Source: a virus. Taken from it: DNA of 64,000 nucleotides. The stretch lies in the UHGV virus genome UHGV-0332176; one strand, 5' to 3'. Below are positions 400-50,455 of this stretch, in pieces. The stretch's first letter is position 1; each line of letters begins with the position of its first letter. The position numbers and the translations under genes were made by a program. The notes below the pieces were generated by a model. That model was not told the origin of the DNA, did no database searches, and saw only the letters and a program-made list of their open reading frames with translations.

Positions 400-830
400 A
401 ATTGGTATTATTAACCAATAGGAAGCCTTTTTAAGGCAATGAGAGTAACCAATCTTTCTTTTGATATATTATAATTTGTTGTTACTTGAATAATGGGTCG
501 CCAGCCCATAAAAGTATACAGATGATAAACTGAAAAGTTTTGAAGGTAGTTGTGAGTAATATGAGCATAAGGTTGAAATAGCCACAGTTGGATAACTGTG
601 AGTGACGTAAGAACCAGACAAATCGTGGTTGAAGAATCTGATGGCTGTATCTGGTTGGGAGTAATCAATCTCCCCATCTATTAAGCAAAGGAGTAATTAA
701 CCTTTGTGGATGTGACTGAATAATGTGTGAATATGAGGGGCTTGTCGGTAGTCAGGAGTCCGACCAACAAATTATAACAGTTTGTGGCAGTCGTTCTGTT
801 AAAAACTCTGCCTTTTTATTTAAATTGATA
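400..830 (+). ncRNA. candidate structured non-coding RNA of unidentified family
   Basis: About 430 nt with GC near 40% against a 27% background, downstream of the promoter at 269-297. No credible ORF. Local hairpins include gggag/ctccc (about 652-675) and gtcgg/ccgac (about 744-768). Confidence 0.3.
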
Positions 831-900
831 GTAAGAAAAAGATTTACATAGATTAATTTTTGGTATTAATAACAACAAATTTTTTTCAGGGTTCTTCAAT
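826..900 (+). ncRNA. repeat module 0: GATAGTAAG box, 9 nt, TACATAG box, short insert, gttcttc box
   Basis: Degenerate copy of the AATAGTGAG-N9/10-TACATAG ... ATGTTCTTT module found six times between 826 and 2330. Confidence 0.3.
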
Positions 901-916
901 TTAAATAAAAATTGCG

Positions 917-1030
917 AATAGTGAGTTATTAGATTTACATAGCTAAATTGGTTAAAGCATCAAATTGTTAATTTGAGTATTGTAGGTTCAATTCCTACTG
1001 TAAACACAATCTAATAGAATGTTCTTTCGC
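917..1030 (+). ncRNA. repeat module A: conserved boxes plus a covarying flanking stem (tattagatt/aatctaata) enclosing a tRNA-like domain
   Basis: AATAGTGAG at 917-925 and TACATAG at 936-942. A 9-bp stem 927-935/1009-1017 flanks the tRNA-like element, with a 3' bulge CACAAT. ATGTTCTTT box at 1019-1027. Confidence 0.5.
933..1006 (+). tRNA. tRNA or tRNA-like with anticodon GTT (Asn) and A1.C72 mismatch, embedded in module A
   Basis: Hand-folded cloverleaf: acceptor 933-939/999-1005, D arm gcta..agc, anticodon stem tcaaa/tttga with loop ttGTTaa, T arm gtagg-ttcaatt-cctac. Confidence 0.5.
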
Positions 1031-1079: not shown

Positions 1080-1165
1080 GGAAGGCAACTGGCTGGATGA
1101 AGACACCGACTTGAAATCGGCTGGGCAGAGATGCTTTGGGGGTTCGAGTCCCTCGCCTTCCGCCA
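1080..1165 (+). tRNA. tRNA-Ser(UGA), class II with long variable arm and encoded CCA
   Basis: Acceptor ggaaggc/gccttcc, anticodon loop cTTGAaa (hand-folded), long variable arm, T arm ggttcgagtcc, 3' GCCA. Confidence 0.7.
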
Positions 1166-1182: not shown

Positions 1183-1569
1183 ATGAAATGTTTAAATTGT
1201 GGTAAAGAAATATTTGATAAAAAACATAAAAATAGAAAATATTGTTGTAATAAATGTCAAAAAGAATTTGAATGGAAACAAACAAAACAATTAATTGAAA
1301 TTTATAATACATATCAATTAAAAAATTATAATGAATATACTGCAAGAAGGACAGCTAAAAAATATTTAATTGAAAAATATGGAAATAAATGTAGTATTTG
1401 TGGAACGACTCATTGGTTAGGAAAACCAATTTTATTAATTGCTGACCATATAGATGGAGATGCCACAAATAATTCAATAAATAATATTAGACTTATTTGT
1501 TCTAATTGTGATGCTACATTAGATACATATAAAGCTAAAAATAAAAGTACAAGAACAAGTCGTAAGTAG
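1183..1569 (+). CDS. HNH homing endonuclease, inserted between two tRNA genes
   Basis: Zn-ribbon CxxC pairs and the HNH motif ADHIDGDATNN...NIRLICSNCDA. The ORF-track start at 1042 runs through tRNA-Ser, so the first plausible ATG is 1183. Confidence 0.7.
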   Translation: MKCLNCGKEIFDKKHKNRKYCCNKCQKEFEWKQTKQLIEIYNTYQLKNYNEYTARRTAKKYLIEKYGNKCSICGTTHWLGKPILLIADHIDGDATNNSINNIRLICSNCDATLDTYKAKNKSTRTSRK

Positions 1570-1649: not shown

Positions 1650-1876
1650 ATTTTTAAGAGCTGACAAGCTGTTCCGCTTCTTATATTAAATAATATATAG
1701 CTTCTCGAACAGCGTTTTAATAAACTCTCCCGCTAAAGATACTTTGTGTATACAGCGAATATGGATAAACGTTAAATCGTTTTAATAACTATAATATAAC
1801 ACGTGTGAAAAAGTTATTATGAGTAAAGAGTTTTCATCAATCTCTATAAACAAAATTGATGAAATTATTTAAATGG

Positions 1877-1957
1877 TAATAGTGAGAAATAGATTTACAT
1901 AGATACTAACATTCAAACTGTTACAATATTAAAGAATCTATTAATATGTTCTTTACC
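1877..1957 (+). ncRNA. repeat module B: short module without a tRNA-like insert
   Basis: AATAGTGAG 1877-1885, TACATAG, covarying stem aatagatt/aatctatt, terminal AATATGTTCTTT. Confidence 0.4.
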
Positions 1958-1973
1958 AATTAAATAATTTTGA

Positions 1974-2045
1974 CAATAGTGATATAAAGAATTACATAGA
2001 TAACTGATTATTATCTGCCAGAAAATATTTCTTTATTATTATTCT
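1974..2045 (+). ncRNA. repeat module C, variant
   Basis: CAATAGTGAT box, TACATAG box, stem aaagaat/attcttt. Confidence 0.35.
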
Positions 2046-2065
2046 TTGTCATATAAAAAATTAGC

Positions 2066-2200
2066 AATAGTGAGAGAAAGATTTACATAGGCTTGTAACC
2101 CGTAGGTAATTGGTTCGAATCCAATCAGATGAATGAAAATTCATTTGTAGCTCATATTGGTAGAGCAACGAAAAAAAGAATCTTTCAATATGTTCTTTGC
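2066..2200 (+). ncRNA. repeat module D: circularly permuted tRNA-like domain, ordered anticodon arm, T arm, 3' acceptor, loop, 5' acceptor, D arm, enclosed by a covarying stem
   Basis: AATAGTGAG 2066-2074 with stem gaaagatt/aatctttc. T arm attgg-ttcgaat-ccaat, then cagatga pairs with the downstream tcatttg (acceptor-like), then D arm gctc-atattggta-gagc. An upstream anticodon-like arm atagg-cttgtaa-cccgt is present. Confidence 0.5.
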
Positions 2201-2217
2201 TTAATAAATTTTTTGGT

Positions 2218-2330
2218 GATAGTGATTAATTAGGTTTACATAGTGAAATGGTTAACACATTTGTCTTGAAAACAAAGAAATGCAGGTTCGAGTCCTGCTG
2301 TAAATAACACCTAATTTTTTGTTCTTCACC
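2218..2330 (+). ncRNA. repeat module E: boxes plus covarying stem (aattaggt/acctaatt) enclosing a class-I tRNA-like element
   Basis: GATAGTGAT box, TTACATAG box, 8-bp flanking stem 2228-2235/2309-2316, bulge ATAAC, gttcttc box. Confidence 0.5.
2234..2306 (+). tRNA. tRNA-like with anticodon UGA but a short variable arm, so class I rather than the class II expected for Ser; probably a tRNA-mimic domain rather than a decoding tRNA
   Basis: Acceptor gtttaca/tgtaaat, anticodon stem tttgt/acaaa with loop cTTGAaa, T arm gcagg-ttcgagt-cctgc, all hand-folded. Confidence 0.4.
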
Positions 2331-2343
2331 TAACATTTTGCAA

Positions 2344-2372
2344 CCCAAGAACATATGTTCTTGGGTTTTTTT
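2344..2372 (+). terminator. rho-independent terminator closing the RNA island
   Basis: cccaagaac-atat-gttcttggg hairpin followed by T7. Confidence 0.6.
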
Positions 2373-2454: not shown

Positions 2455-3744
2455 ATGAAAACAAATAAAGCAATTAAAAAAGACCCAGTATATACTTATG
2501 AAGGTGGTAAAGCATCTCATATTTCTGAATTAGAAGAACTTAAAAGAGCAACAATGTCTTGTTTGCTTTGGGAAGATAATTTCTATGAAGATGGAGTATC
2601 TATTGCAGATAGAATTACCTCATTAGTTAAGGCTTGTATAGATAAAGGTCATTATGATGATGTTATTGATATTTTAAAGAAAGTTAAATTTGATATGAAA
2701 ATTCGTCATTGTCCTTTATGGATGATTGTTGCAATTTATAAAGCTGGTAAAACAATTTCTAAAGATGTTATTGCATCTATCTTAACAAGACCTGATGATA
2801 TGGGTGAATTGCTATCTTTATATAGAAAAGATAATGAAAAATCTCCTATTCCAAATGCTATTAAGAAAGGTATGGCTATTGCATTACAAAAATTTGATGA
2901 ATATCAATTAGCAAAATGGAATCGTAATGCAAATTATAAATTAGTTGATATTGTTAATATTTGCCATCCAAAGGTAACTGAAGCTATTGATAAATTAGTT
3001 AAAGGTACTTTAGAAACTCCTAAAACTTGGGAAGTTTTACTTTCAGCAGCAGGTTCAGATAAAGAAAAGAAAAAAGATGCTTGGAATGAATTAATTGAAT
3101 CTAATAAATTACCAGATATGGCTTTATTAAAGAATATTCGTGGTATGCTAGAAAGCGGTGTATCAAAAACTGTTATTGTTGATAGAATTAATATGATTAA
3201 AAGTGGTCGTTTACTACCAATTGATTATATTAGAGCTGCAGAAAATAATCCATCTTTAGAAAATGAAATTGAAAAGAAATTTCTAAATTGCTTTGAAAAA
3301 CCATCATTATACGGTAAAACTGCAATTCTTGTAGATGTTTCAGGTTCAATGGATGGTGAACGCTTAAAATATGCAAATGCATTGGCAATGATTGGACGTG
3401 AAATGTGCTCAGAAGTTGATATATATTCATTCTCTGATTATGTTAAATTTGTACCAAATCGTAGAGGTTTTGCATTAGCAGAAGCTATTGATAAATCTCA
3501 AACTCATTGGGGAACTAATATGTGGGATGCTATTACTGAAGTTGAAAAAGGACGTTATGATAGAATTATTGTTGTAACTGATGAACAAACTATGGGTAGT
3601 CCTCATAATGCTAAAATTAAAAATGCATATATGATTAATGTGGCATCTTATTCAAAAGGTGTTGGATATAACAATGGTTATAAACACATTAATGGTTTTT
3701 CAGATAAAGTATTCAATTACATTTCTGAAATTGAAAATGTATAA
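2455..3744 (+). CDS. Ro60/Rsr-like protein with TROVE-like N-terminal region and C-terminal vWA domain (MIDAS DVSGSM)
   Basis: 429 aa. vWA motif ILVDVSGSMDG plus later SFSD / TDEQ elements. The alpha-helical repeat-like N-terminal two-thirds is consistent with TROVE. It follows the tRNA-like RNA module array. Confidence 0.6.
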   Translation: MKTNKAIKKDPVYTYEGGKASHISELEELKRATMSCLLWEDNFYEDGVSIADRITSLVKACIDKGHYDDVIDILKKVKFDMKIRHCPLWMIVAIYKAGKTISKDVIASILTRPDDMGELLSLYRKDNEKSPIPNAIKKGMAIALQKFDEYQLAKWNRNANYKLVDIVNICHPKVTEAIDKLVKGTLETPKTWEVLLSAAGSDKEKKKDAWNELIESNKLPDMALLKNIRGMLESGVSKTVIVDRINMIKSGRLLPIDYIRAAENNPSLENEIEKKFLNCFEKPSLYGKTAILVDVSGSMDGERLKYANALAMIGREMCSEVDIYSFSDYVKFVPNRRGFALAEAIDKSQTHWGTNMWDAITEVEKGRYDRIIVVTDEQTMGSPHNAKIKNAYMINVASYSKGVGYNNGYKHINGFSDKVFNYISEIENV

Positions 3745-4068
3745 ATATTATTAACAAACCCGATAGGCTTCTTATTTAATTGAGTAGTATGGGTATATTA
3801 GATGACTTAATGCTCACTCCCCTCTGCTACTCTTTAAATTAAATATAGCACAATTATCTTTCTGGAATTGACCAGATAAGTTTATTAAAATTCCTAGGTT
3901 AAATTAATAAATGGGTAGATTTATAAAATTATCCTAAACACGCTCTGATACTTTAATAGTATTAACGCTTATTATATGAGATTACATATAACAATTATAA
4001 TTTCAGCTGTTCAGTTATAATTGGGATATTGGATTTAATCAATTTAACAAGAGAGATTAATTTCTTTC

Positions 4069-4320
4069 TTGTTAAATTATTTTTGTATAAAAGGAAATAA
4101 AATGTTAAATTTAAAAAGTATTTTAAATGATAATATGAGAGTAAAATTTGATTTTTATCGTGATGGTGCTTTATGGTATTCAACAATGAATGGATTTCAA
4201 TTTCCTGTTTCCGTAAAAACATTAGCTGGTACAACAATTTTAAAAGCTAATGATAAAGCATCAGCATTTAGTTATTATATTAAAAAATATTATAATGAAT
4301 TAAATAAAGATAAGGAATAA
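4069..4320 (+). CDS. hypothetical protein
   Basis: ORF with an upstream AAGGAAA ribosome-binding site. Confidence 0.4.
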   Translation: MLNYFCIKGNKMLNLKSILNDNMRVKFDFYRDGALWYSTMNGFQFPVSVKTLAGTTILKANDKASAFSYYIKKYYNELNKDKE

Positions 4321-4325
4321 TTTAG

Positions 4326-4742
4326 ATGAGATTACAATTTTATGTTCAAACAAAAGAAATATCAAAAAATAATCAATTATATGGTGTTATGACAATGATT
4401 GATGATAAGCCATTTGATTATTTGATTGGTAATATGGAAGGTGATAAAGAATATGTTATTGATAAAGTATCTAAAAATATTTTAATTAAAAATAAAACTG
4501 TTTTAAAAAATAATTATTATTCTTTTAAATATGATAATTTAGATATAACGAAAAAAATGTTATATAAATTTCATACTGAAGATTTTTATAAACAGTATTC
4601 AAAAGAACAACAAACATCATTAGATGCATTACCAGCTATTTTTCTTTCTGATTTGACTAAATTATCTAACTTAACAAAACGAATGAATAATTACGAACAA
4701 TTATTACAAAATAAATTTTATAATTCAAAAAATCGCATTTAA
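4326..4742 (+). CDS. hypothetical protein
   Basis: ORF followed by the terminator at 4729-4755. Confidence 0.45.
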   Translation: MRLQFYVQTKEISKNNQLYGVMTMIDDKPFDYLIGNMEGDKEYVIDKVSKNILIKNKTVLKNNYYSFKYDNLDITKKMLYKFHTEDFYKQYSKEQQTSLDALPAIFLSDLTKLSNLTKRMNNYEQLLQNKFYNSKNRI

Positions 4743-9424: not shown

Positions 9425-9702
9425 AAGACGAATTTTTAATACATTATAAACAATTATATAATTGTAAATGGTATCATTACATTTATTATTGGTTTTATAA
9501 TTTTTGGCAGTTGCTAAATTTTAAACATAAGCAATGTGTAACCATCTATCTTTGTCTTAAAGAAGATGAGCCATCTTCTGAAATGTTTTATGCCCCATAT
9601 ATTCCAATAGCAACAAATGATTTAAAAAAGGAATTACCAAAAGGAGTAATAAAGATAAACGATTGTTTTACAACAGATGAAAATGGTAGAGTATTGTATT
9701 AA
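9418..9702 (+). CDS. hypothetical protein with the aromatic motif KWYHYIYYWFYNFWQ; paralogue of 10716-11045
   Basis: Shares a roughly 45-nt near-identical segment with the ORF at 10716. Confidence 0.45.
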   Translation: MLKDEFLIHYKQLYNCKWYHYIYYWFYNFWQLLNFKHKQCVTIYLCLKEDEPSSEMFYAPYIPIATNDLKKELPKGVIKINDCFTTDENGRVLY

Positions 9703-9713
9703 AGGAAGACATA

Positions 9714-10280
9714 ATGAAAAATAATTTAGAAGATTTAATTGAACAGCATAATTTATTAAAAGAGCATCCATTTAGATTAGGTAATGATGAAAAATATCTT
9801 GGAAATTATGCCACAGAATTTCAATCATTTTATAAAAATGTATATGAATATTTAAAAAATGGTAAAACTTATACTGAAGCATATAATGATAAAAAATTTC
9901 AAGCTATGAGTAATATGTATCACGATTTTATGAAAATAACAAGTGATTTAAGGCATCGTATTAATGATATACCATTAGAAAAGAAAACAAATATTATTTT
10001 ATATTTAGAAATGATTTTAGGGTCTATTCATTTTTATTTGGATAATGGTTATTTTAAATCATATTATACATTTTCAGTATTAGAACCTAATAAGTATATG
10101 GTTTATGAATTTAAATATAGTAATAGAAATAAGTGGTCATTATATATGCCGAAAGATAAATTAAAAAAGACTTTAGATTATTATCTTGCTAAACCTCACG
10201 AAGATAACATTTATACATATATTGTTGAATATTATCAAGATTTATATGATAATTATGAAAAGGATTGGAAAGATGAGTGA
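9714..10280 (+). CDS. hypothetical protein
   Basis: ORF with AGGAAG ribosome-binding site. Confidence 0.55.
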   Translation: MKNNLEDLIEQHNLLKEHPFRLGNDEKYLGNYATEFQSFYKNVYEYLKNGKTYTEAYNDKKFQAMSNMYHDFMKITSDLRHRINDIPLEKKTNIILYLEMILGSIHFYLDNGYFKSYYTFSVLEPNKYMVYEFKYSNRNKWSLYMPKDKLKKTLDYYLAKPHEDNIYTYIVEYYQDLYDNYEKDWKDE

Positions 10281-11045: not shown

Positions 11046-11278
11046 TGAATTACTTAAATATTAAAATGCCTTATCCAATGCCAGATGATTATAATATAGA
11101 ATTGGAAATTGGTGATTATATTGTTAAAGATAAAAATGGTGAATTCTTTATTGATAGTTGGGTAGATAATATAATGGGATTTTATTGTTGGGAATTGGAT
11201 GCCTTATCAGAAATCGTATGTAAATTACCTTCTTGTGAAGAATTACTTAAAATTTTGGAGAAAGAATATGCAGAATAA
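11045..11278 (+). CDS. hypothetical protein
   Basis: ORF. Confidence 0.4.
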   Translation: MNYLNIKMPYPMPDDYNIELEIGDYIVKDKNGEFFIDSWVDNIMGFYCWELDALSEIVCKLPSCEELLKILEKEYAE

Positions 11279-11717
11279 AATTTTAGATGAATATAAAAAA
11301 GCTGTCAAAGAAAATGATTTTTGGAGAAAGAAAGTTTTAACTACTTTACGCTCTGAAATTAAAAATATGGAAATTATGCTTCGTCCAAAAAATTTAACAC
11401 CAACTGATGCAGATATTCTTTGTGTTATTCAAAAAATTATTAAACAAGATAAAGAAGCACTTGGTATGTTTATTGAAAGTGGACGACAAGATTTGATTGA
11501 TGCAACTAATACTGAAATTACAATTCTTGAAGAATTTTTACCAACACAATTAACAAATGATGAAATTGATAATATCATCAAACAAGAAATTGAAAATAAT
11601 AGCTATTCATCAATGAAAGATATGGGCAAATTGATGGGATATTTTAAGAATAATTATTCTGGTCAATGTGATATGGGATATGTATCTAAGAAAATTAAGG
11701 AGATGTTAAATGGATAA
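11268..11717 (+). CDS. GatB/YqeY domain protein
   Basis: Motifs LRSEIKN, KQDKEALGMFIESGRQDLIDATNTEITILEEFLP and MGKLMGYFKNNYSGQCDMGYVSKKIKEML match the YqeY pattern. Start taken at ATG 11268. Confidence 0.6.
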   Translation: MQNKILDEYKKAVKENDFWRKKVLTTLRSEIKNMEIMLRPKNLTPTDADILCVIQKIIKQDKEALGMFIESGRQDLIDATNTEITILEEFLPTQLTNDEIDNIIKQEIENNSYSSMKDMGKLMGYFKNNYSGQCDMGYVSKKIKEMLNG

Positions 11718-46422: not shown

Positions 46423-46767
46423 AAACAAAGCTCCCAAATGGGAGCTTAACTTATTTATGTATTATTTCAGTCGCAGTCATTTCTGTTGCAAGGATAACTG
46501 TTTCCCCACTAAACATAAAAGCATTCATCCGTTAGGATTAAGCAGCAATTACATTATAGTTATAGTTAACGTTTTCGTTAGCATTCATTTTATTTTGAAC
46601 CGATATTGGTGGTATCTCGCCAGGTACATTATAGCCATTTTCAATAATGTTCAAAATTCCGTCCGCCCCTAATACATTGATTTTTCATAATATTTTCCTG
46701 GTGGAGCGGCTGGGAGTTAAACCCAGGTCACTATCATTTACTTTGGGATAATTTATCAGCACCATTC
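46423..46767 (-). ncRNA. ssrA: circularly permuted two-piece tmRNA precursor: acceptor piece, then about 29 nt of intervening sequence, then coding piece
   Basis: Minus strand. The acceptor piece ends with T arm ctggg-tttaact-cccag, 3' acceptor ccgctcc and ACCA (to 46699). The coding piece begins with GGGGCGG at 46669, which pairs with ccgctcc through a G3.U70 wobble. Tag ORF 46581-46537 reads GCT AAC GAA AAC GTT AAC TAT AAC TAT AAT GTA ATT GCT GCT TAA (ANENVNYNYNVIAA*). The terminator hairpin gctcccatttgggagc plus T-run ends at 46423. Confidence 0.75.
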
Positions 46768-46774
46768 AAAATTA

Positions 46775-46803
46775 TTTATAAATTATTTTATTTTAATTGT
46801 CAA
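46775..46803 (-). promoter_or_regulatory. sigma70-like promoter for the tmRNA gene
   Basis: On the minus strand: TTGACA (plus coordinates 46803-46798), 17-nt spacer, TATAAA (46780-46775). Confidence 0.5.
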
Positions 46804-46864
46804 TAAAATAATTTAGGACATAAATACAGTTATAAGCAATTCACAAATTTAATAAAGGATTATA

Positions 46865-47948: not shown

Positions 47949-49298
47949 ATGAAAAGAATTAATAATTTATGGGAAGAATTTACTTCACAAGAACATTGGT
48001 TTGAAGCAAGAAAAAGAGCTTTACGAGGTAAAGTTAAAAAATATTGTGTCAAAGCTATTATGAGAAAAGGTGACGAATATTTAGAAAAAATTCGTCAAGA
48101 TGTTATTAATGGTACTTTTGAATTTAAGGGTTATAAAGAACATACTATTTATGAACCTAAAGAACGTAAAATATTTGTAGCAAGAATTGAAGAAAGAATT
48201 TATCATTGGGCATCAATGATGATTACTGAAAGAATTTTTGAACCAACATTTATATTTGATAGCTATTGTTGCCGTAAAAATAAAGGACAACATAAATGTT
48301 CAGATAAATGCAAAGAAATTGTTAAACATAATAATTATTGTTTAAAATTAGATATTTCTAAATTTTATCCAAATATTAATCATAAAATATTAAAAGAGTG
48401 TTTAGCAAGAAAAATTAAAGATATAAGATTTCTCAATGCTTTATACGCAATTATTGATAGTCATAATAAGGATACTGGAAAAGGTATTCCAATTGGTAAT
48501 TATTCTTCTCAAATTTTTGGAAATATTTATATGACTAAATTAGATATGTTTGTTAAGCACACTTTAAAATGCAAACATTATTTAAGATATTGTGATGATT
48601 TTTGTTTATTTTCAAATGATAAAAAGTATTTAAATTGGTGCAAAGAAAAAATTATTGAATTTGTTACTAATGAATTAGATATGAAATTAAGCAAATGTGA
48701 TTTATTTAAAACTAAACAAGGTGTTGATTTTGTTGGATATAGACATTTTCCTCAATATACTTTAGTTAGAAAAAGAACTGCTAAAAAAGTTAAAAAGAGA
48801 ATGTTAAAAATTCAATATAAATTAAAAAATTATGAATTAACTCAAAAAGAATTATTTAGAATGAATGGGCAAGTTGCCAGCTCATATGGTTGGTGTAAAC
48901 ACGCTGATTCTTATAGATTTATGAAAAAATATAAAATTGAAGAATGTTTAAAGGAGATTATAATGAGATATGCAGAATTTAAAAACAAATTACATACAAA
49001 TAAAATGTTATCAATGAAAATTAATGATTTTATTAATAAAGAAATAACAATAACAGGTTGGGAATATTATAAAAAGAATGATAATAATGAAGATGATAAA
49101 AATAAAGAAGCAGTTAAAACTGTTAAAATACATTTAATATATAATGGTGAAGAAAAAATTATTATAACTAAAGCATCGGTTATTATCAGAGATTTAGAAG
49201 AAATTTCACAATTAGAAAAAGAAGAAAATACAAAGATATTTCCCTTTGATGCAACATTAAAGAAAGATACTAAACGAAATTATTTTTATTTTGAATAA
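47949..49298 (+). CDS. diversity-generating retroelement reverse transcriptase
   Basis: RT motifs: EPKERKIFVA (motif 2), LKLDISKFYPNINH (motif A), GIPIGNYSSQIFGNIY (the DGR-specific IGxxxSQ form of motif B), YLRYCDDFCLF (YxDD). It has a C-terminal extension of about 110 aa. Confidence 0.85.
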   Translation: MKRINNLWEEFTSQEHWFEARKRALRGKVKKYCVKAIMRKGDEYLEKIRQDVINGTFEFKGYKEHTIYEPKERKIFVARIEERIYHWASMMITERIFEPTFIFDSYCCRKNKGQHKCSDKCKEIVKHNNYCLKLDISKFYPNINHKILKECLARKIKDIRFLNALYAIIDSHNKDTGKGIPIGNYSSQIFGNIYMTKLDMFVKHTLKCKHYLRYCDDFCLFSNDKKYLNWCKEKIIEFVTNELDMKLSKCDLFKTKQGVDFVGYRHFPQYTLVRKRTAKKVKKRMLKIQYKLKNYELTQKELFRMNGQVASSYGWCKHADSYRFMKKYKIEECLKEIIMRYAEFKNKLHTNKMLSMKINDFINKEITITGWEYYKKNDNNEDDKNKEAVKTVKIHLIYNGEEKIIITKASVIIRDLEEISQLEKEENTKIFPFDATLKKDTKRNYFYFE

Positions 49299-49372
49299 AG
49301 ACGGGCATCGCAAGGCTGCCCTGTCGTTTGCTATATGACCGCACAAGGCGGTCTAAAAAGAAAAGGATTTGA

Positions 49373-49395
49373 GTTTTACTCAAATCCCTTAGCAT
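49373..49395. promoter_or_regulatory. 9-bp stem hairpin ggatttgag-tttta-ctcaaatcc immediately 3' of the VR on the target strand; candidate DGR target-recognition hairpin and terminator. Two more GC-rich hairpins sit at 49309-49333 and 49346-49360.
   Basis: Seen directly. It lies between the convergent RT and target genes. Confidence 0.45.
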
Positions 49396-50455
49396 TAGCA
49401 GCAAGCCCCCGCACCGAGCTACCGTCGCTCAAAGTAGCACGAGAAGCGTTACAATCACGAGAACCAACCCCGCAGATAGATGAACCATCCCAAGTACCAC
49501 CAGCCCGCAAAACGAAACCTTCACCGTAAAAAGAACCTTTACCCATATCAGTATTAATAACAGTCCAACCACTTCCACCAGATGCACCAGTTGAATTTAA
49601 ATATTGCCATAAAGCACCGCAACAATCTTCTATACCATAAACAGAAATCATTCTTCTACCAGCAGTATCTACGTGTCCACCAGTTGTTACTGGGTCAGCA
49701 GCACCAGAAATAGCAGTTCCTTGATTAGAACCAAATGCATATGCAGTAAATTCATTATCATTAGCTAAATGTTTACCAACTGAAAATAAATCTTCTACGT
49801 GATTTTGATAATAACGAGTATCAGTAATTGTTGCACCAAAAACTGATTTGGTATTTAATCCAGTTCCTGATTGTAAATAAATATCACACCATTTATCAAT
49901 TACATCAATATATGCCATTCCATCAACATCAGCAAATCGTGGACGAAATGAGATACAAGATATTGAATTTGGTAATATATCGCCAGCATTATATCCAGAT
50001 AATAAATGTCCAGAAATTGTTCCAACATTAGCACATACAGTATGGAATGAAGATAACCATTGAGTATTAGATGTTGTATATCCTGTTGGAGCATCTGAAT
50101 TTAATGAACAAATTAATTCTTTATCAGAAGTAATATAAATGTAATAAGTTTTTCCAGCTTGTAAAGATGTTCCAGTATCTAAAATAGAAACGGGATTAAT
50201 TTCTTTGGCTTCATAATTTTCATAATTAACTAATTCATTATTAAAAACTAAAGGTATATTACAAGGTTCAAGAATAATTGTTGTTTTATCAAAACAATTA
50301 GTTTTACCTTCTCTAAATAATTGAGTATAAGATTTACCTTTAATTGTATTATCTAATTCTTTAATATGAACAAAACGAAATGTAGGAGCAAATCCGCCTA
50401 ATAATGTTTGTAATCCATATATACGATTAATTTGAACTTTTGAAATATCTATCAT
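49376..50455 (-). CDS. DGR target protein (C-type-lectin-fold variable protein), likely a receptor-binding protein
   Basis: The C-terminus ...GEGFVLRAGGTWDGSSICGVGSRDCNASRATLSDGSSVRGLAANAKGFE* is encoded by the VR. Confidence 0.8.
   Translation of the reverse strand: MIDISKVQINRIYGLQTLLGGFAPTFRFVHIKELDNTIKGKSYTQLFREGKTNCFDKTTIILEPCNIPLVFNNELVNYENYEAKEINPVSILDTGTSLQAGKTYYIYITSDKELICSLNSDAPTGYTTSNTQWLSSFHTVCANVGTISGHLLSGYNAGDILPNSISCISFRPRFADVDGMAYIDVIDKWCDIYLQSGTGLNTKSVFGATITDTRYYQNHVEDLFSVGKHLANDNEFTAYAFGSNQGTAISGAADPVTTGGHVDTAGRRMISVYGIEDCCGALWQYLNSTGASGGSGWTVINTDMGKGSFYGEGFVLRAGGTWDGSSICGVGSRDCNASRATLSDGSSVRGLAANAKGFE
49401..49515 (-). repeat. DGR variable repeat (VR) at the 3' end of the target gene
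   Basis: About 103 nt align with the reverse complement of the TR and mismatch only at TR-adenine positions (about 23 substitutions). The 3' end GGGGGCTTG (VR) versus GAGGGCTTG (TR) corresponds to the IMH region. Confidence 0.85.

What the first reader, a model, noticed from the sequence alone, without database searches (positions are those of the whole stretch)
2066..2200. Circularly permuted tRNA-like domain inside module D
Reading 5' to 3' the elements are: an anticodon-like arm (atagg-cttgtaa-cccgt), variable region aggta, T arm attgg-TTCGAAT-ccaat, 3' acceptor cagatga, A, a 7-nt connector, 5' acceptor tcatttg (pairing 7/7 with one G.U), TA, D arm gctc-atattGGTAgagc. All tRNA parts are present but in permuted order, broken at the D/anticodon junction, and the whole is closed by the module's covarying stem. 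Permuted tRNA genes are otherwise known from a red alga and from archaea. Here it more likely represents a tRNA-mimic effector domain as seen in YrlA-type Y RNAs.
Basis: seen in the sequence. Interest (0 to 1): 0.6.

Follow-up and report, generated by a model that had tools for sequence, protein, structure and literature searches.

The report
Phage Y RNA with tRNA-like domain
The permuted tRNA look-alike at 2064-2200 is the tRNA-mimic domain of a YrlA-type Y RNA, a known kind of small RNA that partners the Ro60 protein, whose gene lies just downstream in this uncultured gut phage; it is a new example, not a new kind of element.

Summary
At 2064-2200(+) a T arm, a closed acceptor-like hairpin and a D arm occur in the order T, acceptor, D. 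All three form together in the minimum-free-energy fold, with pair probabilities of 0.75-0.99. The region is non-coding and lies 254 nt upstream of, and on the same strand as, a TROVE/Ro60 gene (2455-3744). Rfam's YrlA model matches the core at 36.6 bits, below its 69-bit threshold. YrlA-type elements beside the Ro60 genes of phages CcrColossus and Neville also score only 30-44 bits. A covariance model built here finds full-length homologues next to Ro60 genes in dozens of phage contigs. On 50 distinct sequences, 87% of cells are paired (40-49% in slid controls) and 33 of 35 pairs show compensatory changes. Two corrections are needed. The "7-nt connector" is two more base pairs plus a GAAA tetraloop. 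The anticodon-like arm is real, but its 5' strand is split: nt 27-29 come from ACG after the D arm and nt 30-31 from the 5' hairpin. The break is therefore at 29|30, not 26|27. Module D is one of six tandem Y-RNA modules. Verdict: a new member of the YrlA family with a divergent Ro60 motif (UAGUGAG where YrlA has GNCGAA), and not a decoding permuted tRNA.

The parts
2064..2200 (+). Module D: the complete YrlA-type Y RNA (Ro60-binding stem plus tRNA-like domain)
   Evidence: R1 covariance-model hit over the full model, 151.6 bits (the model includes this sequence). Homologues lie next to Ro60 genes in other phages at E 1e-15 to 1e-5.
2064..2070 (+). Closing stem, 5' strand: GCAA, bulged U2068, then AG. 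Pairs with 2195-2200 (CU-UUGC).
   Evidence: Helix 1 is 95.8% paired with 4-5 pair types per pair. The AG/CU step is 86.5% paired and covaries A-U / G-C.
2068..2074 (+). UAGUGAG: the conserved 5' motif in the internal loop and the presumed Ro60 contact. It corresponds to GNCGAA(N)G of YrlA.
   Evidence: Present in 5 of the 6 window modules (module 0 has ATAGTAA) and nowhere else in the 64 kb (0.01 expected). Sister clades have AGGCGAG/AGGCGAAU and UGGCG/UGGUG at the same position. The role in Ro60 binding is inferred from PMC4201824 and PMC12135203.
2076..2083 (+). Stem 2, 5' strand (GAAAGAUU). Pairs with 2179-2186 (AAUCUUUC).
   Evidence: All 8 pairs show compensatory changes and 82% of cells are paired. 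The window's AAAGAUU/AAUCUUU becomes AAGGAUU/AAUCCUU in L001.
2082..2090 (+). UUUACAUAG: conserved linker (the 'YUAY' of YrlA, UUAC) leading into the hairpin.
   Evidence: UUACAUAG is present in all window modules; the first position of the 9-mer varies (A in module C, G in module E). Distant homologues have GUUACUUCG.
2090..2100 (+). Lower anticodon-arm mimic: G30 G31, 7-nt loop CUUGUAA, C39 C40.
   Evidence: The two pairs are 94% paired and covary. The loop is 7 nt in 38 of 48 homologues, with U33 in 37/38, a purine at 37 in 37/38 and A38 in 38/38.
2101..2103 (+). C41 G42 U43: the 3' strand of the upper anticodon stem. Pairs with A27 C28 G29 at 2168-2170.
Evidence: 27:43 is paired in 46/47 sequences with 6 pair types, 28:42 in 44/48 and 29:41 in 38/48. 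This is the same helix as in the Rfam YrlA consensus.
2104..2108 (+). Variable loop AGGUA (nt 44-48).
   Evidence: There are 10 nt from the loop to the T stem in 43 of 48 homologues. Position 48 covaries with D-loop position 15: G:C in 8, U:A in 5 (the window clade), A:U in 3.
2109..2125 (+). T arm AUUGG-UUCGAAU-CCAAU.
   Evidence: 100% of cells paired, and 4 of 5 pairs show compensatory changes. Pair probabilities 0.75-0.93.
2126..2147 (+). Acceptor-like hairpin CAGAUGAAU-GAAA-AUUCAUUUG: 9 bp, closed.
   Evidence: Pair probabilities 0.79-0.99. All 7 modelled pairs covary. Stem length is 5-11 bp across the family.
2148..2166 (+). U8 A9 and the D arm GCUC-AUAUUGGUA-GAGC.
   Evidence: Pair probability 0.94. 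Matches the Rfam YrlA and tRNA consensus GCUCA..GGUAGAGC.
2167..2178 (+). A26, A27 C28 G29 (upper anticodon stem, 5' strand), then the A-rich linker AAAAAAAG.
   Evidence: for the pairing. The linker varies in length among homologues.
2187..2196 (+). AAUAUGUUCU: conserved 3' strand of the internal loop (URUUCY across the family).
2455..3744 (+). Ro60/Rsr orthologue (TROVE and vWA domains), the presumed protein partner.
   Evidence: Pfam TROVE E = 1.9e-15. PDB 9KOP/9L5Y phage phiLo Ro60, E = 1.9e-11, aligned over residues 13-427. 95 phage records encode relatives.
825..899 (+). Module 0: a Y-RNA-like module with an ATAGTAA variant motif and no tRNA-like domain.
   Evidence: R1 hit over the flanks, 25.2 bits; sequence read.
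914..1030 (+). Module A: the same flanks around a full cloverleaf in normal tRNA order (called tRNA-Asn GTT).
1876..1956 (+). Module B: a Y-RNA-like module without a tRNA-like domain.
   Evidence: 43.9 bits over the flanks.
1973..2049 (+). Module C: a Y-RNA-like module without a tRNA-like domain.
2215..2330 (+). Module E: the same flanks around a class-I cloverleaf in normal order (called tRNA-Ser TGA).
   Evidence: The orthologous 'anticodon' is AAC in L001, AAT in L002 and TGA in L253/L255.
2342..2367 (+). Intrinsic-terminator-like hairpin plus a T run, ending the module array before the Ro60 gene.
   Evidence: 11-bp stem, 5 G-C pairs. Conserved in L001/L002.

Best explanation
Module D (2064-2200, + strand) is a YrlA-type Y RNA of an uncultured, AT-rich human-gut phage.

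Its two ends pair into a bulged stem, an internal loop and a second stem that carry the conserved motifs UAGUGAG (5') and UGUUCU (3'). This part is inferred to bind the Ro60 protein encoded 254 nt downstream.

The interior folds into a tRNA-shaped domain whose parts come in circularly permuted order:
- lower anticodon hairpin
- 3' strand of the anticodon stem
- 5-nt variable loop
- T arm
- acceptor-like hairpin closed by a GAAA tetraloop
- U8 A9
- D arm
- A26
- 5' strand of the upper anticodon stem

The Ro60-binding stem leaves the tRNA shape through a three-way junction between nt 29 and 30.

By analogy with characterised Y RNAs, the RNA tethers Ro60 to a tRNA-recognising or RNA-degrading partner. 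Host PNPase is the documented partner in D. radiodurans, S. Typhimurium and Thermus phage phiLo. The RNA may also gate Ro60's central cavity.

Shown here: the sequence elements, the secondary structure through covariation, and the linkage to Ro60 genes. Inferred: Ro60 binding, the L-shaped tertiary fold, the identity of the effector, and any processing.
For: - Linkage to a Ro60 gene on the same strand.
- The Rfam YrlA model aligns T arm, acceptor hairpin, D arm and the flanking helix at 36.6 bits, E = 8e-6. YrlA-type elements next to the Ro60 genes of CcrColossus and Gordonia phage Neville score 30-44 bits with the same model.
- CM R1 finds full-length homologues adjacent to Ro60 in loci whose Ro60 is only 31-44% identical: L290, L008, L284, L280, L267, L009, L274, L277, L004 and CcrColossus.
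- Covariation on 50 distinct sequences: 86.9% of cells paired against 40-49% in slid controls; 33/35 pairs with compensatory changes; covariation score 0.70 against 0.17 in shuffles.
- tRNA tertiary-contact positions are present: U8, A14, G18 G19, U54 U55 C56, A58. The 15:48 Levitt pair covaries.
- All three arms have high pair probability.
- No ORF of 50 aa or more lies on either strand between 1667 and 2455.
- Literature: YrlA is defined as a Ro60-linked RNA resembling a circularly permuted tRNA, and was found in 22 phages (PMC4201824; 10.1101/312249). Phage Ro60 binds upstream Y-like RNAs and host PNPase (PMC12135203).
Against: - The Rfam score is below the gathering threshold (36.6 vs 69).
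- The canonical 5' motif GNCGAAN0-1G is absent from the window modules (UAGUGAG instead).
- No expression, Ro60-binding or modification data exist for this phage.
- The thermodynamic z-score of the whole module is only -1.8.
- The alignments used for pair counts were fitted to the model, which favours the model's structure.
Confidence: 0.85

Rival explanations
1. A true circularly permuted tRNA gene. The transcript would be circularised or ligated and re-cut at the acceptor end to give a decoding tRNA-Thr(UGU), as in Cyanidioschyzon merolae or Thermofilum.
For: All cloverleaf parts are present with tRNA dimensions: a 5-bp anticodon stem, a 7-nt loop with U33, A37 and A38, a 5-nt variable loop, and 7 or more bp in the acceptor. 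The anticodon UGU is conserved within the window clade.
Against: - The junction is a conserved stem / internal loop / stem linked to Ro60, not a bulge-helix-bulge.
- The 'anticodon' changes between near-identical relatives: UUU in L003 vs GAU in L265. It is scattered over 14 triplets in the family.
- The acceptor helix is closed by a tetraloop and is 5-11 bp long across the family.
- A normal tRNA-Thr(UGU) is already encoded at 1575-1649.
- No splicing endonuclease is known in phage or bacterial systems (general knowledge).
Confidence: 0.03
2. A two-piece, RNase P-processed variant, as in M. smegmatis YrlA. RNase P would cut 5' of U2141, and the 5' piece would be trimmed and receive CCA after A2133. 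The result is a nicked tRNA mimic with a free CCA end that still holds Ro60.
For: Seven acceptor pairs followed by A73 are present. M. smegmatis YrlA, with a 7-bp stem, is cleaved by RNase P and CCA-tailed in vivo (PMC4201824).
Against: - Here the helix continues for two more pairs (A2133-U2140, U2134-A2139) into a GAAA tetraloop, so positions -1 and 73 are paired.
- Stem length is not conserved at 7 bp in the family.
- S. [quoted passage not shown]
Confidence: 0.1
3. A decayed junction of two tandem tRNA genes (3' half of one and 5' half of the next) with no function of its own.
For: Tandem tRNA junctions give partial R1 hits covering model positions 27-107. The phage has many tRNA genes nearby. 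A dimeric-tRNA origin of YrlA has been proposed (10.1101/312249).
Against: - The two acceptor strands pair with each other and covary.
- The flanks pair and covary.
- The element is conserved next to Ro60 over Ro60 identities down to about 31%.
Confidence: 0.02

Closest known systems
YrlA (Y RNA-like A), Rfam RF02553: S. Typhimurium, M. smegmatis and phage homologues (Chen et al. 2014, PMC4201824; Wang et al. 2018, 10.1101/312249)
   Same: - Encoded near Ro60 on the same strand.
- Terminal stem with a 5' motif in an internal loop.
- Interior in the order T arm, closed acceptor-like hairpin, UA, D arm.
- The same short helix directly flanking the V loop and the D arm.
- Conserved elbow nucleotides.
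   Different: - The 5' motif is UAGUGAG, not GNCGAA(N)G.
- Where the Rfam consensus continues the anticodon stem as a long two-strand helix (uggGgaa/uucCcca), this lineage has UUAC plus a local hairpin with a 7-nt anticodon-like loop. The Ro60 stem therefore branches off at a three-way junction.
- It scores 36.6 bits against a threshold of 69.
YrlA-type modules upstream of the Ro60 gene of Caulobacter phage CcrColossus, and next to that of Gordonia phage Neville
   Same: The same architecture, including the hairpin with a 7-nt loop. They occur in tandem arrays (four in CcrColossus) and are likewise sub-threshold for Rfam, at 30-44 bits.
   Different: They are GC-rich and have UGGCG motifs. One CcrColossus module is annotated in GenBank as tRNA-Gln.
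Thermus phage phiLo Yrl1/Yrl2 with phiRo60 (PMC12135203)
   Same: Phage Ro60 with Y-like RNAs encoded upstream. Each RNA is a stem / internal bulge / stem with the motif in the bulge. The window's Ro60 has phiRo60 as its best PDB match.
   Different: The paper as read does not describe a tRNA-like domain for Yrl1/Yrl2, and their motif is CGAA.
D. radiodurans Yrn1
   Same: A Y RNA with a tRNA-like portion, tethering Ro60 to PNPase.
   Different: Its arms are in D, anticodon, T order with the Ro60 stem at the acceptor position. That resembles window modules A and E, not module D.
Circularly permuted tRNA genes (Cyanidioschyzon merolae; Thermofilum)
   Same: The 3' half of the cloverleaf is encoded before the 5' half.
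   Different: Those genes yield decoding tRNAs through a circular intermediate and splicing-type junctions. Here the acceptor is a closed hairpin, the junction is a Ro60-binding stem, and the anticodon is not conserved.
Two-piece (permuted) tmRNA
   Same: A permuted tRNA-like domain. One is encoded in this same window at 46469-46807(-).
   Different: tmRNA has a free CCA acceptor end and a tag reading frame, and it partners SmpB rather than Ro60.

Membership tests
YrlA-type Y RNA | Encoded within about 4 kb of a TROVE/Ro60 gene on the same strand | tested here: met
   Module D ends at 2200 and Ro60 starts at 2455, both on the + strand.
YrlA-type Y RNA | Interior ordered T arm, acceptor-like stem-loop, UA, D arm, with tRNA-like T and D loops | tested here: met
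   Covariation.
YrlA-type Y RNA | Nucleotides for tRNA tertiary contacts (U8:A14, G18:U55, G19:C56, U54:A58, Levitt 15:48) | tested here: met
   All are present by direct reading. The 15:48 pair is U:A in the window clade, G:C in 8 homologues and A:U in 3. The 3D fold itself was not tested.
YrlA-type Y RNA | Helix formed by the nucleotides just 5' of the V loop and just 3' of the D arm (top of the anticodon stem) | tested here: met
   CGU 2101-2103 pairs with ACG 2168-2170. Pairing is 98%, 92% and 79% for the three pairs, with multiple pair types.
YrlA-type Y RNA | 5' motif GNCGAAN0-1G | tested here: not met
   The window has UAGUGAG. The sister clade L003 has GGCGAAUG/GGCGAG, and other phages have UGGCG or UGGUG at the same position.
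YrlA-type Y RNA | Rfam RF02553 gathering score (69 bits) | tested here: not met
   36.6 bits over model positions 23-87. The CcrColossus and Gordonia phage elements also fail, at 30-44 bits. None of the 29 related phage loci scanned at the gathering threshold reached 69 bits.
YrlA-type Y RNA | Bound by Ro60/Rsr; carries pseudouridine 55 and dihydrouridine | not testable with these tools
   Needs co-immunoprecipitation or gel shift, and modification mapping.
Circularly permuted tRNA gene (decoding) | 3' half encoded upstream of the 5' half | tested here: met
   Order read.
Circularly permuted tRNA gene (decoding) | Splicing-type (bulge-helix-bulge) junction and free acceptor ends after processing | tested here: not met
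   The junction is an 8-bp stem, an 8 x 10 internal loop and a bulged 6-bp stem. The acceptor is a closed 9-bp hairpin with a GAAA loop.
Circularly permuted tRNA gene (decoding) | Anticodon conserved among orthologues | tested here: not met
   UUU in L003 vs GAU in L265, with otherwise near-identical modules. Fourteen different triplets occur across the family.
D. radiodurans Yrn1-type Y RNA | tRNA-like part in D, anticodon, T order, with the Ro60 stem at the acceptor position | tested here: not met
   Module D has the opposite order. Modules A and E of the same array have the Yrn1-like order.

The most novel reading that the evidence does not exclude
In this phage lineage the YrlA domain may be a complete tRNA mimic, unlike the S. 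Typhimurium YrlA, which lacks an anticodon loop. It would have a 5-bp / 7-nt anticodon arm assembled across a three-way junction, with the Ro60 stem inserted between nt 29 and 30.

The same fold also exists in natural tRNA order, with the Ro60 module as an internal branch, in crAss001 (L295 4124-4267 and 4379-4518). The window's array additionally carries two full cloverleaves attached to Ro60 stems through the acceptor end.

The phage would then deploy a panel of Ro60-tethered whole-tRNA decoys or baits. Possible roles are to absorb or sense host anticodon nucleases and other tRNA-targeting defences, or to recruit tRNA repair or modification enzymes.
Probability: 0.2. Interest if true: 0.7.

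Novelty: new member of a known kind. Interest (0 to 1): 0.4.

Why it matters
Practical point: tRNA finders and Rfam thresholds handle this locus badly.
- ARAGORN and Rfam call two of the Y-RNA modules tRNA-Asn and tRNA-Ser.
- GenBank calls one CcrColossus module tRNA-Gln.
- Rfam's YrlA threshold misses every phage example tested here.

As a result, phage tRNA counts are inflated and phage Y RNAs go unannotated.

Biological point: the locus adds a large human-gut phage, with six tandem modules, to the short list of viruses carrying a Ro60/Y RNA system. The comparative data also give a testable structural model in which the anticodon arm is split by the Ro60 stem and both circular permutations of the fold exist. 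That model could help identify the still-unknown effector that reads the YrlA tRNA-like domain.

Tried and rejected
Its outer three pairs are rejected in favour of the long-range CGU:ACG pairing (vs 42, 69). Nearest-neighbour energies cannot separate the two (-22.5 vs -22.1 kcal/mol; pair probability about 0 for both).
- Alternative hairpin TTACA-TAGGCT-TGTAA (2083-2097), read as a remnant of the acceptor stem seen in modules A and E. Not conserved in L003/L265 (TTACA...TTTAA), so rejected.
- Promoter reading of module C's TTGACA-17 nt-TACATA. The other modules lack a -35 element, and the promoter scan is at chance level (14 found vs 15.6 expected).
- Viral-collection scan with ATAGTGAN{6,16}TTACATAG. 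Returned mostly single chance matches.
- The MAFFT alignment of the 8 seed modules misaligned the acceptor hairpin. Pair counts were therefore made on CM-fitted alignments, with the stated bias.
- No RNA-repair genes (RtcB, RtcA, Pnkp) were found among the ten largest window ORFs scanned. Smaller ORFs were not scanned.
- The Annual Review on bacterial Ro60 (PMC10870794) is not held in the library.
- The megaphage locus L298 has no Y-RNA module.

Full report
**What is at the coordinates**

The window is AT-rich (22-30% G+C). It carries phage-type genes: tail-fibre-like proteins with CBM_5_12 domains and a diversity-generating retroelement. Close relatives are human-gut metagenome contigs and IMG/VR viral contigs of 217-287 kb.

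No ORF of 50 aa or more overlaps 1667-2455 on either strand. The sequence at 2064-2200 contains, in this order:
- a closing stem GCAA-U-AG
- the motif UAGUGAG
- a second stem
- UUUACAUAG
- a small hairpin GG-CUUGUAA-CC
- CGU
- AGGUA
- the T arm AUUGG-UUCGAAU-CCAAU
- CAGAUGA-A-U-GAAA-A-U-UCAUUUG
- UA
- the D arm GCUC-AUAUUGGUA-GAGC
- A, then ACG
- an A-rich linker
- the 3' strands of the two stems, with AUGUUCU between them

**Is it more than chance, and does it fold?**

The MFE structure forms the T arm, the acceptor hairpin and the D arm together inside the module stem. In the partition function their pair probabilities are 0.75-0.93, 0.79-0.99 and 0.94. The pattern 'T loop, 18-48 nt, D arm' occurs once in 64 kb and never in 100 shuffles.

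The whole-module z-score is modest (-1.8). This is usual for AT-rich RNAs whose stability depends on tertiary structure and protein.

**What it is**

A 429-aa TROVE-domain protein is encoded at 2455-3744 on the same strand (Pfam E = 1.9e-15). Its best solved relative is the Ro60 of Thermus phage phiLo, aligned over nearly its full length (E = 1.9e-11). Ninety-five phage records encode relatives.

Rfam's YrlA model (RF02553) aligns 2101-2172 to model positions 23-87. This covers the short helix, V loop, T arm, acceptor hairpin, UA and D arm. The score is 36.6 bits, E = 8e-6 for the 2.2 kb searched, below the 69-bit gathering score.

The sub-threshold score does not exclude membership. The YrlA-type elements next to the Ro60 genes of Caulobacter phage CcrColossus and Gordonia phage Neville score only 30-44 bits. 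None of the 29 related phage loci scanned at the gathering threshold reaches 69 bits.

The literature defines YrlA as a Ro60-linked RNA whose effector domain has T, acceptor-like and D stem-loops in that order. Chen et al. 2014 (PMC4201824) found it within 4 kb of Ro60 in 254 bacteria and 22 phages.

**Comparative evidence**

The Ro60 protein retrieved loci with 98% down to 31% identity. The orthologous module in L001/L002 differs from the window by compensatory changes:
- Stem 2: AAAGAUU/AAUCUUU becomes AAGGAUU/AAUCCUU.
- Acceptor: CAGAUGAAU/AUUCAUUUG becomes CAAGUAAU/AUUAUUUG.
- CGUA..AACG, with an A.A mismatch, becomes CGUU..AACG.

A covariance model (R1) was built from eight modules. It finds full-length hits immediately upstream of Ro60, on the same strand, in many distant loci. 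It also finds three strong hits and one weaker hit upstream of the CcrColossus Ro60 gene.

Pair counts on 50 distinct sequences:
- 86.9% of cells form standard pairs, against 40-49% when partners are slid by 1-3 columns.
- 33 of 35 pairs show changes on both sides.
- The covariation score is 0.70, against 0.17 in shuffles.
- The T arm is 100% paired, the closing stem 96%, stem 2 82% and the acceptor 86%.
- The D arm's 65% reflects register slips in the fitted alignment; its sequence is almost invariant.

These alignments were fitted to the model, so they lean towards its structure. The slid controls and the number of pair types argue that the signal is real.

**The anticodon-like arm: a correction**

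In the window, the outer three of those pairs are A-U, U.G and A.C.

Across the family, the three nucleotides after the hairpin pair instead with the three nucleotides that follow A26 after the D arm:
- 27:43 is paired in 46 of 47 sequences: G-C 24, U-A 12, A-U 4, C-G 4, plus wobbles.
- 28:42 is paired in 44 of 48: G-C 20, A-U 11, C-G 11.
- 29:41 is paired in 38 of 48.

The local alternative gives 31/42, 31/45 and 25/43, and its 5' partners are nearly invariant U's. This long-range helix is also the one in the Rfam YrlA consensus.

- The loop is 7 nt in 38 of 48 homologues.
- U is at loop position 2 in 37/38, a purine at position 6 in 37/38, and A at position 7 in 38/38.
- Exactly 10 nt separate the loop from the T stem in 43/48.

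Together these give a 5-bp stem with a 7-nt loop. Its 3' strand is continuous (C39 C40 C41 G42 U43). Its 5' strand is made of two pieces: A27 C28 G29 from the 3' part of the RNA, and G30 G31 from the 5' part. The Ro60-binding stem emerges between them.

Coaxial stacking of the two short helices is my inference and was not tested.

Chen et al. call a hairpin in this position the 'V' stem-loop, begun by a conserved YUAY (here UUAC). In the Rfam consensus the corresponding segment instead continues the anticodon stem as a two-strand helix.

Independent support comes from Bacteroides phage crAss001. Downstream of its Ro60 gene lie two simple Y-like modules and two elements in natural tRNA order (L295 4124-4267 and 4379-4518). 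In the first of these, the order is acceptor 5' strand, D arm, A26, GUA, then a Ro60-type module closed by a loop (UGUUCC..UGGUGUAG..GAGUUACUUC), then the hairpin, UAC, V loop, T arm and acceptor 3' strand. This is the circular permutation of window module D. The second element has the acceptor strands, the loop-closed Ro60-type module and the T arm, but a D arm is not evident.

**Other corrections and details**

The acceptor helix continues two pairs beyond the seven listed and is capped by GAAA. Its length ranges from 5 to 11 bp in the family, as reported for YrlA. RNase P cleavage with CCA addition, seen in M. smegmatis where the stem is exactly 7 bp, is therefore possible but not favoured.

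The Levitt pair 15:48 covaries: G:C in 8 sequences, A:U in 3, and U:A in the five window-clade sequences. This supports an L-shaped fold.

The 5' motif is UAGUGAG in the window clade, AGGCGAG or AGGCGAAU in the L003 clade (which fits GNCGAA), and UGGCG or UGGUG elsewhere. The 3' strand carries a conserved URUUCY. The motif lies in an 8 x 10 internal loop between two stems. That matches the stem / bulge / stem Ro60 site described for phage phiLo Yrl RNAs (PMC12135203).

**Context**

Module D is one of six tandem modules with the same flanks. Five carry ATAGTGA..TTACATAG (0.01 expected by chance), and one variant lies at 825-899. None occurs elsewhere in the window.

Modules 0, B and C have short interiors. 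Modules A and E enclose full cloverleaves in normal order, which ARAGORN and Rfam call tRNA-Asn(GTT) and tRNA-Ser(TGA). The orthologue of E reads AAC in L001 and AAT in L002, and E lacks the long variable arm of tRNA-Ser. These too are tRNA mimics attached to a Ro60 stem, in the orientation described for D. radiodurans Yrn1.

A terminator-like hairpin at 2342-2367 ends the array.

**Mechanism and rivals**

The most likely reading (confidence 0.85) is this. The paired termini, with the UAGUGAG / UGUUCU loop, bind the phage Ro60. The tRNA-shaped domain serves as the effector or protective module. As in the characterised systems, the RNP probably engages host PNPase or a tRNA-binding factor.

A decoding permuted tRNA is very unlikely:
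- The anticodon is unconserved (UUU in L003 vs GAU in L265).
- The acceptor is closed.
- The junction is Ro60-type.
- A normal tRNA-Thr(UGU) lies at 1575-1649.

A decayed tandem-tRNA junction is excluded by the covariation. A nicked, CCA-tailed two-piece form remains a minor possibility.

**Novelty**

This is a new member of a known family, in an unannotated gut phage. Three lineage-specific features deserve experimental follow-up but do not make a new kind of system:
- a divergent Ro60 motif
- the anticodon-arm mimic at a three-way junction
- an unusually rich six-module array

Noticed in passing
window 472-851 (+); also L262 724-1107, L001 1238-1623, L002 1911-2296, L298 ~1410-1730: A conserved non-coding element of about 380 nt lies immediately 5' of the Y-RNA array. 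It is 86-89% identical in relatives whose Ro60 protein is only 70-87% identical. A diverged copy occurs in the 735-kb uncultured megaphage LR756501, with visible compensatory changes in several hairpins. The only Rfam similarity is a weak manA RNA match at 686-774 (25.8 bits vs 55.2). It is probably an undescribed large structured phage RNA.
   Followed up: partly
L030 8971-9751: A ROOL RNA (298 bits) is followed within 8 nt by a Y-RNA-like module (9626-9751), and another module lies at 11171-11305. The arrangement 'large ornate RNA followed directly by a Y-RNA module' is the same as in the window.
   Followed up: no
window 914-1030 and 2215-2330: The ARAGORN/Rfam calls tRNA-Asn(GTT) and tRNA-Ser(TGA) are full cloverleaves embedded in Y-RNA flanks (modules A and E). 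The 'anticodon' of the E orthologue is AAC, AAT or TGA in close relatives, so these are probably Ro60-tethered tRNA mimics in normal tRNA order, not decoding tRNAs.
   Followed up: partly
L295 (Bacteroides phage crAss001, NC_049977) 3928-4522: An unannotated 900-nt gap downstream of the crAss001 Ro60 gene holds two simple Y-like modules. It also holds two tRNA-order elements in which a Ro60-type module closed by a loop is inserted in the anticodon-stem 5' strand. They are the circular permutation of window module D. Rfam calls one of them tRNA (46.6 bits).
   Followed up: partly
L294 (Caulobacter phage CcrColossus) 1454-2257: Four tandem YrlA-type modules lie upstream of the Ro60 gene. The GenBank 'tRNA-Gln' at 1628-1695 is part of the second module.
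   Followed up: partly
window 46469-46807 (-): A circularly permuted (two-piece) tmRNA gene: RF04321 at 87.5 bits and alpha_tmRNA at 77.4 bits. It is a second permuted tRNA-like RNA in the same phage.
   Followed up: no
window 1080-1165 (+): A tRNA-Ser(UGA)-like gene with a long variable arm and an encoded CCA. ARAGORN missed it, and Rfam matched it only weakly as tRNA-Sec (31 bits). A counterpart exists in L262 at 1339-1421.
   Followed up: no
window 1183-1569 (+): An HNH-endonuclease-like ORF sits between the tRNA genes inside the RNA gene cluster. L001 has a different, longer ORF at this place and L002 has none, so it looks like a mobile insertion.
   Followed up: no
window 1650-1870 (+): A conserved non-coding stretch after tRNA-Thr (..CTCCCGCTAAAGATACTTTGTGTATACAGCGAATATGG..). 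It is also present in L001, L002 and L262. No Rfam match.
   Followed up: no
window 47949-50455: Components of a diversity-generating retroelement: a reverse transcriptase (47949-49298, +) and an Mtd-like target protein (49376-50455, -).
   Followed up: no
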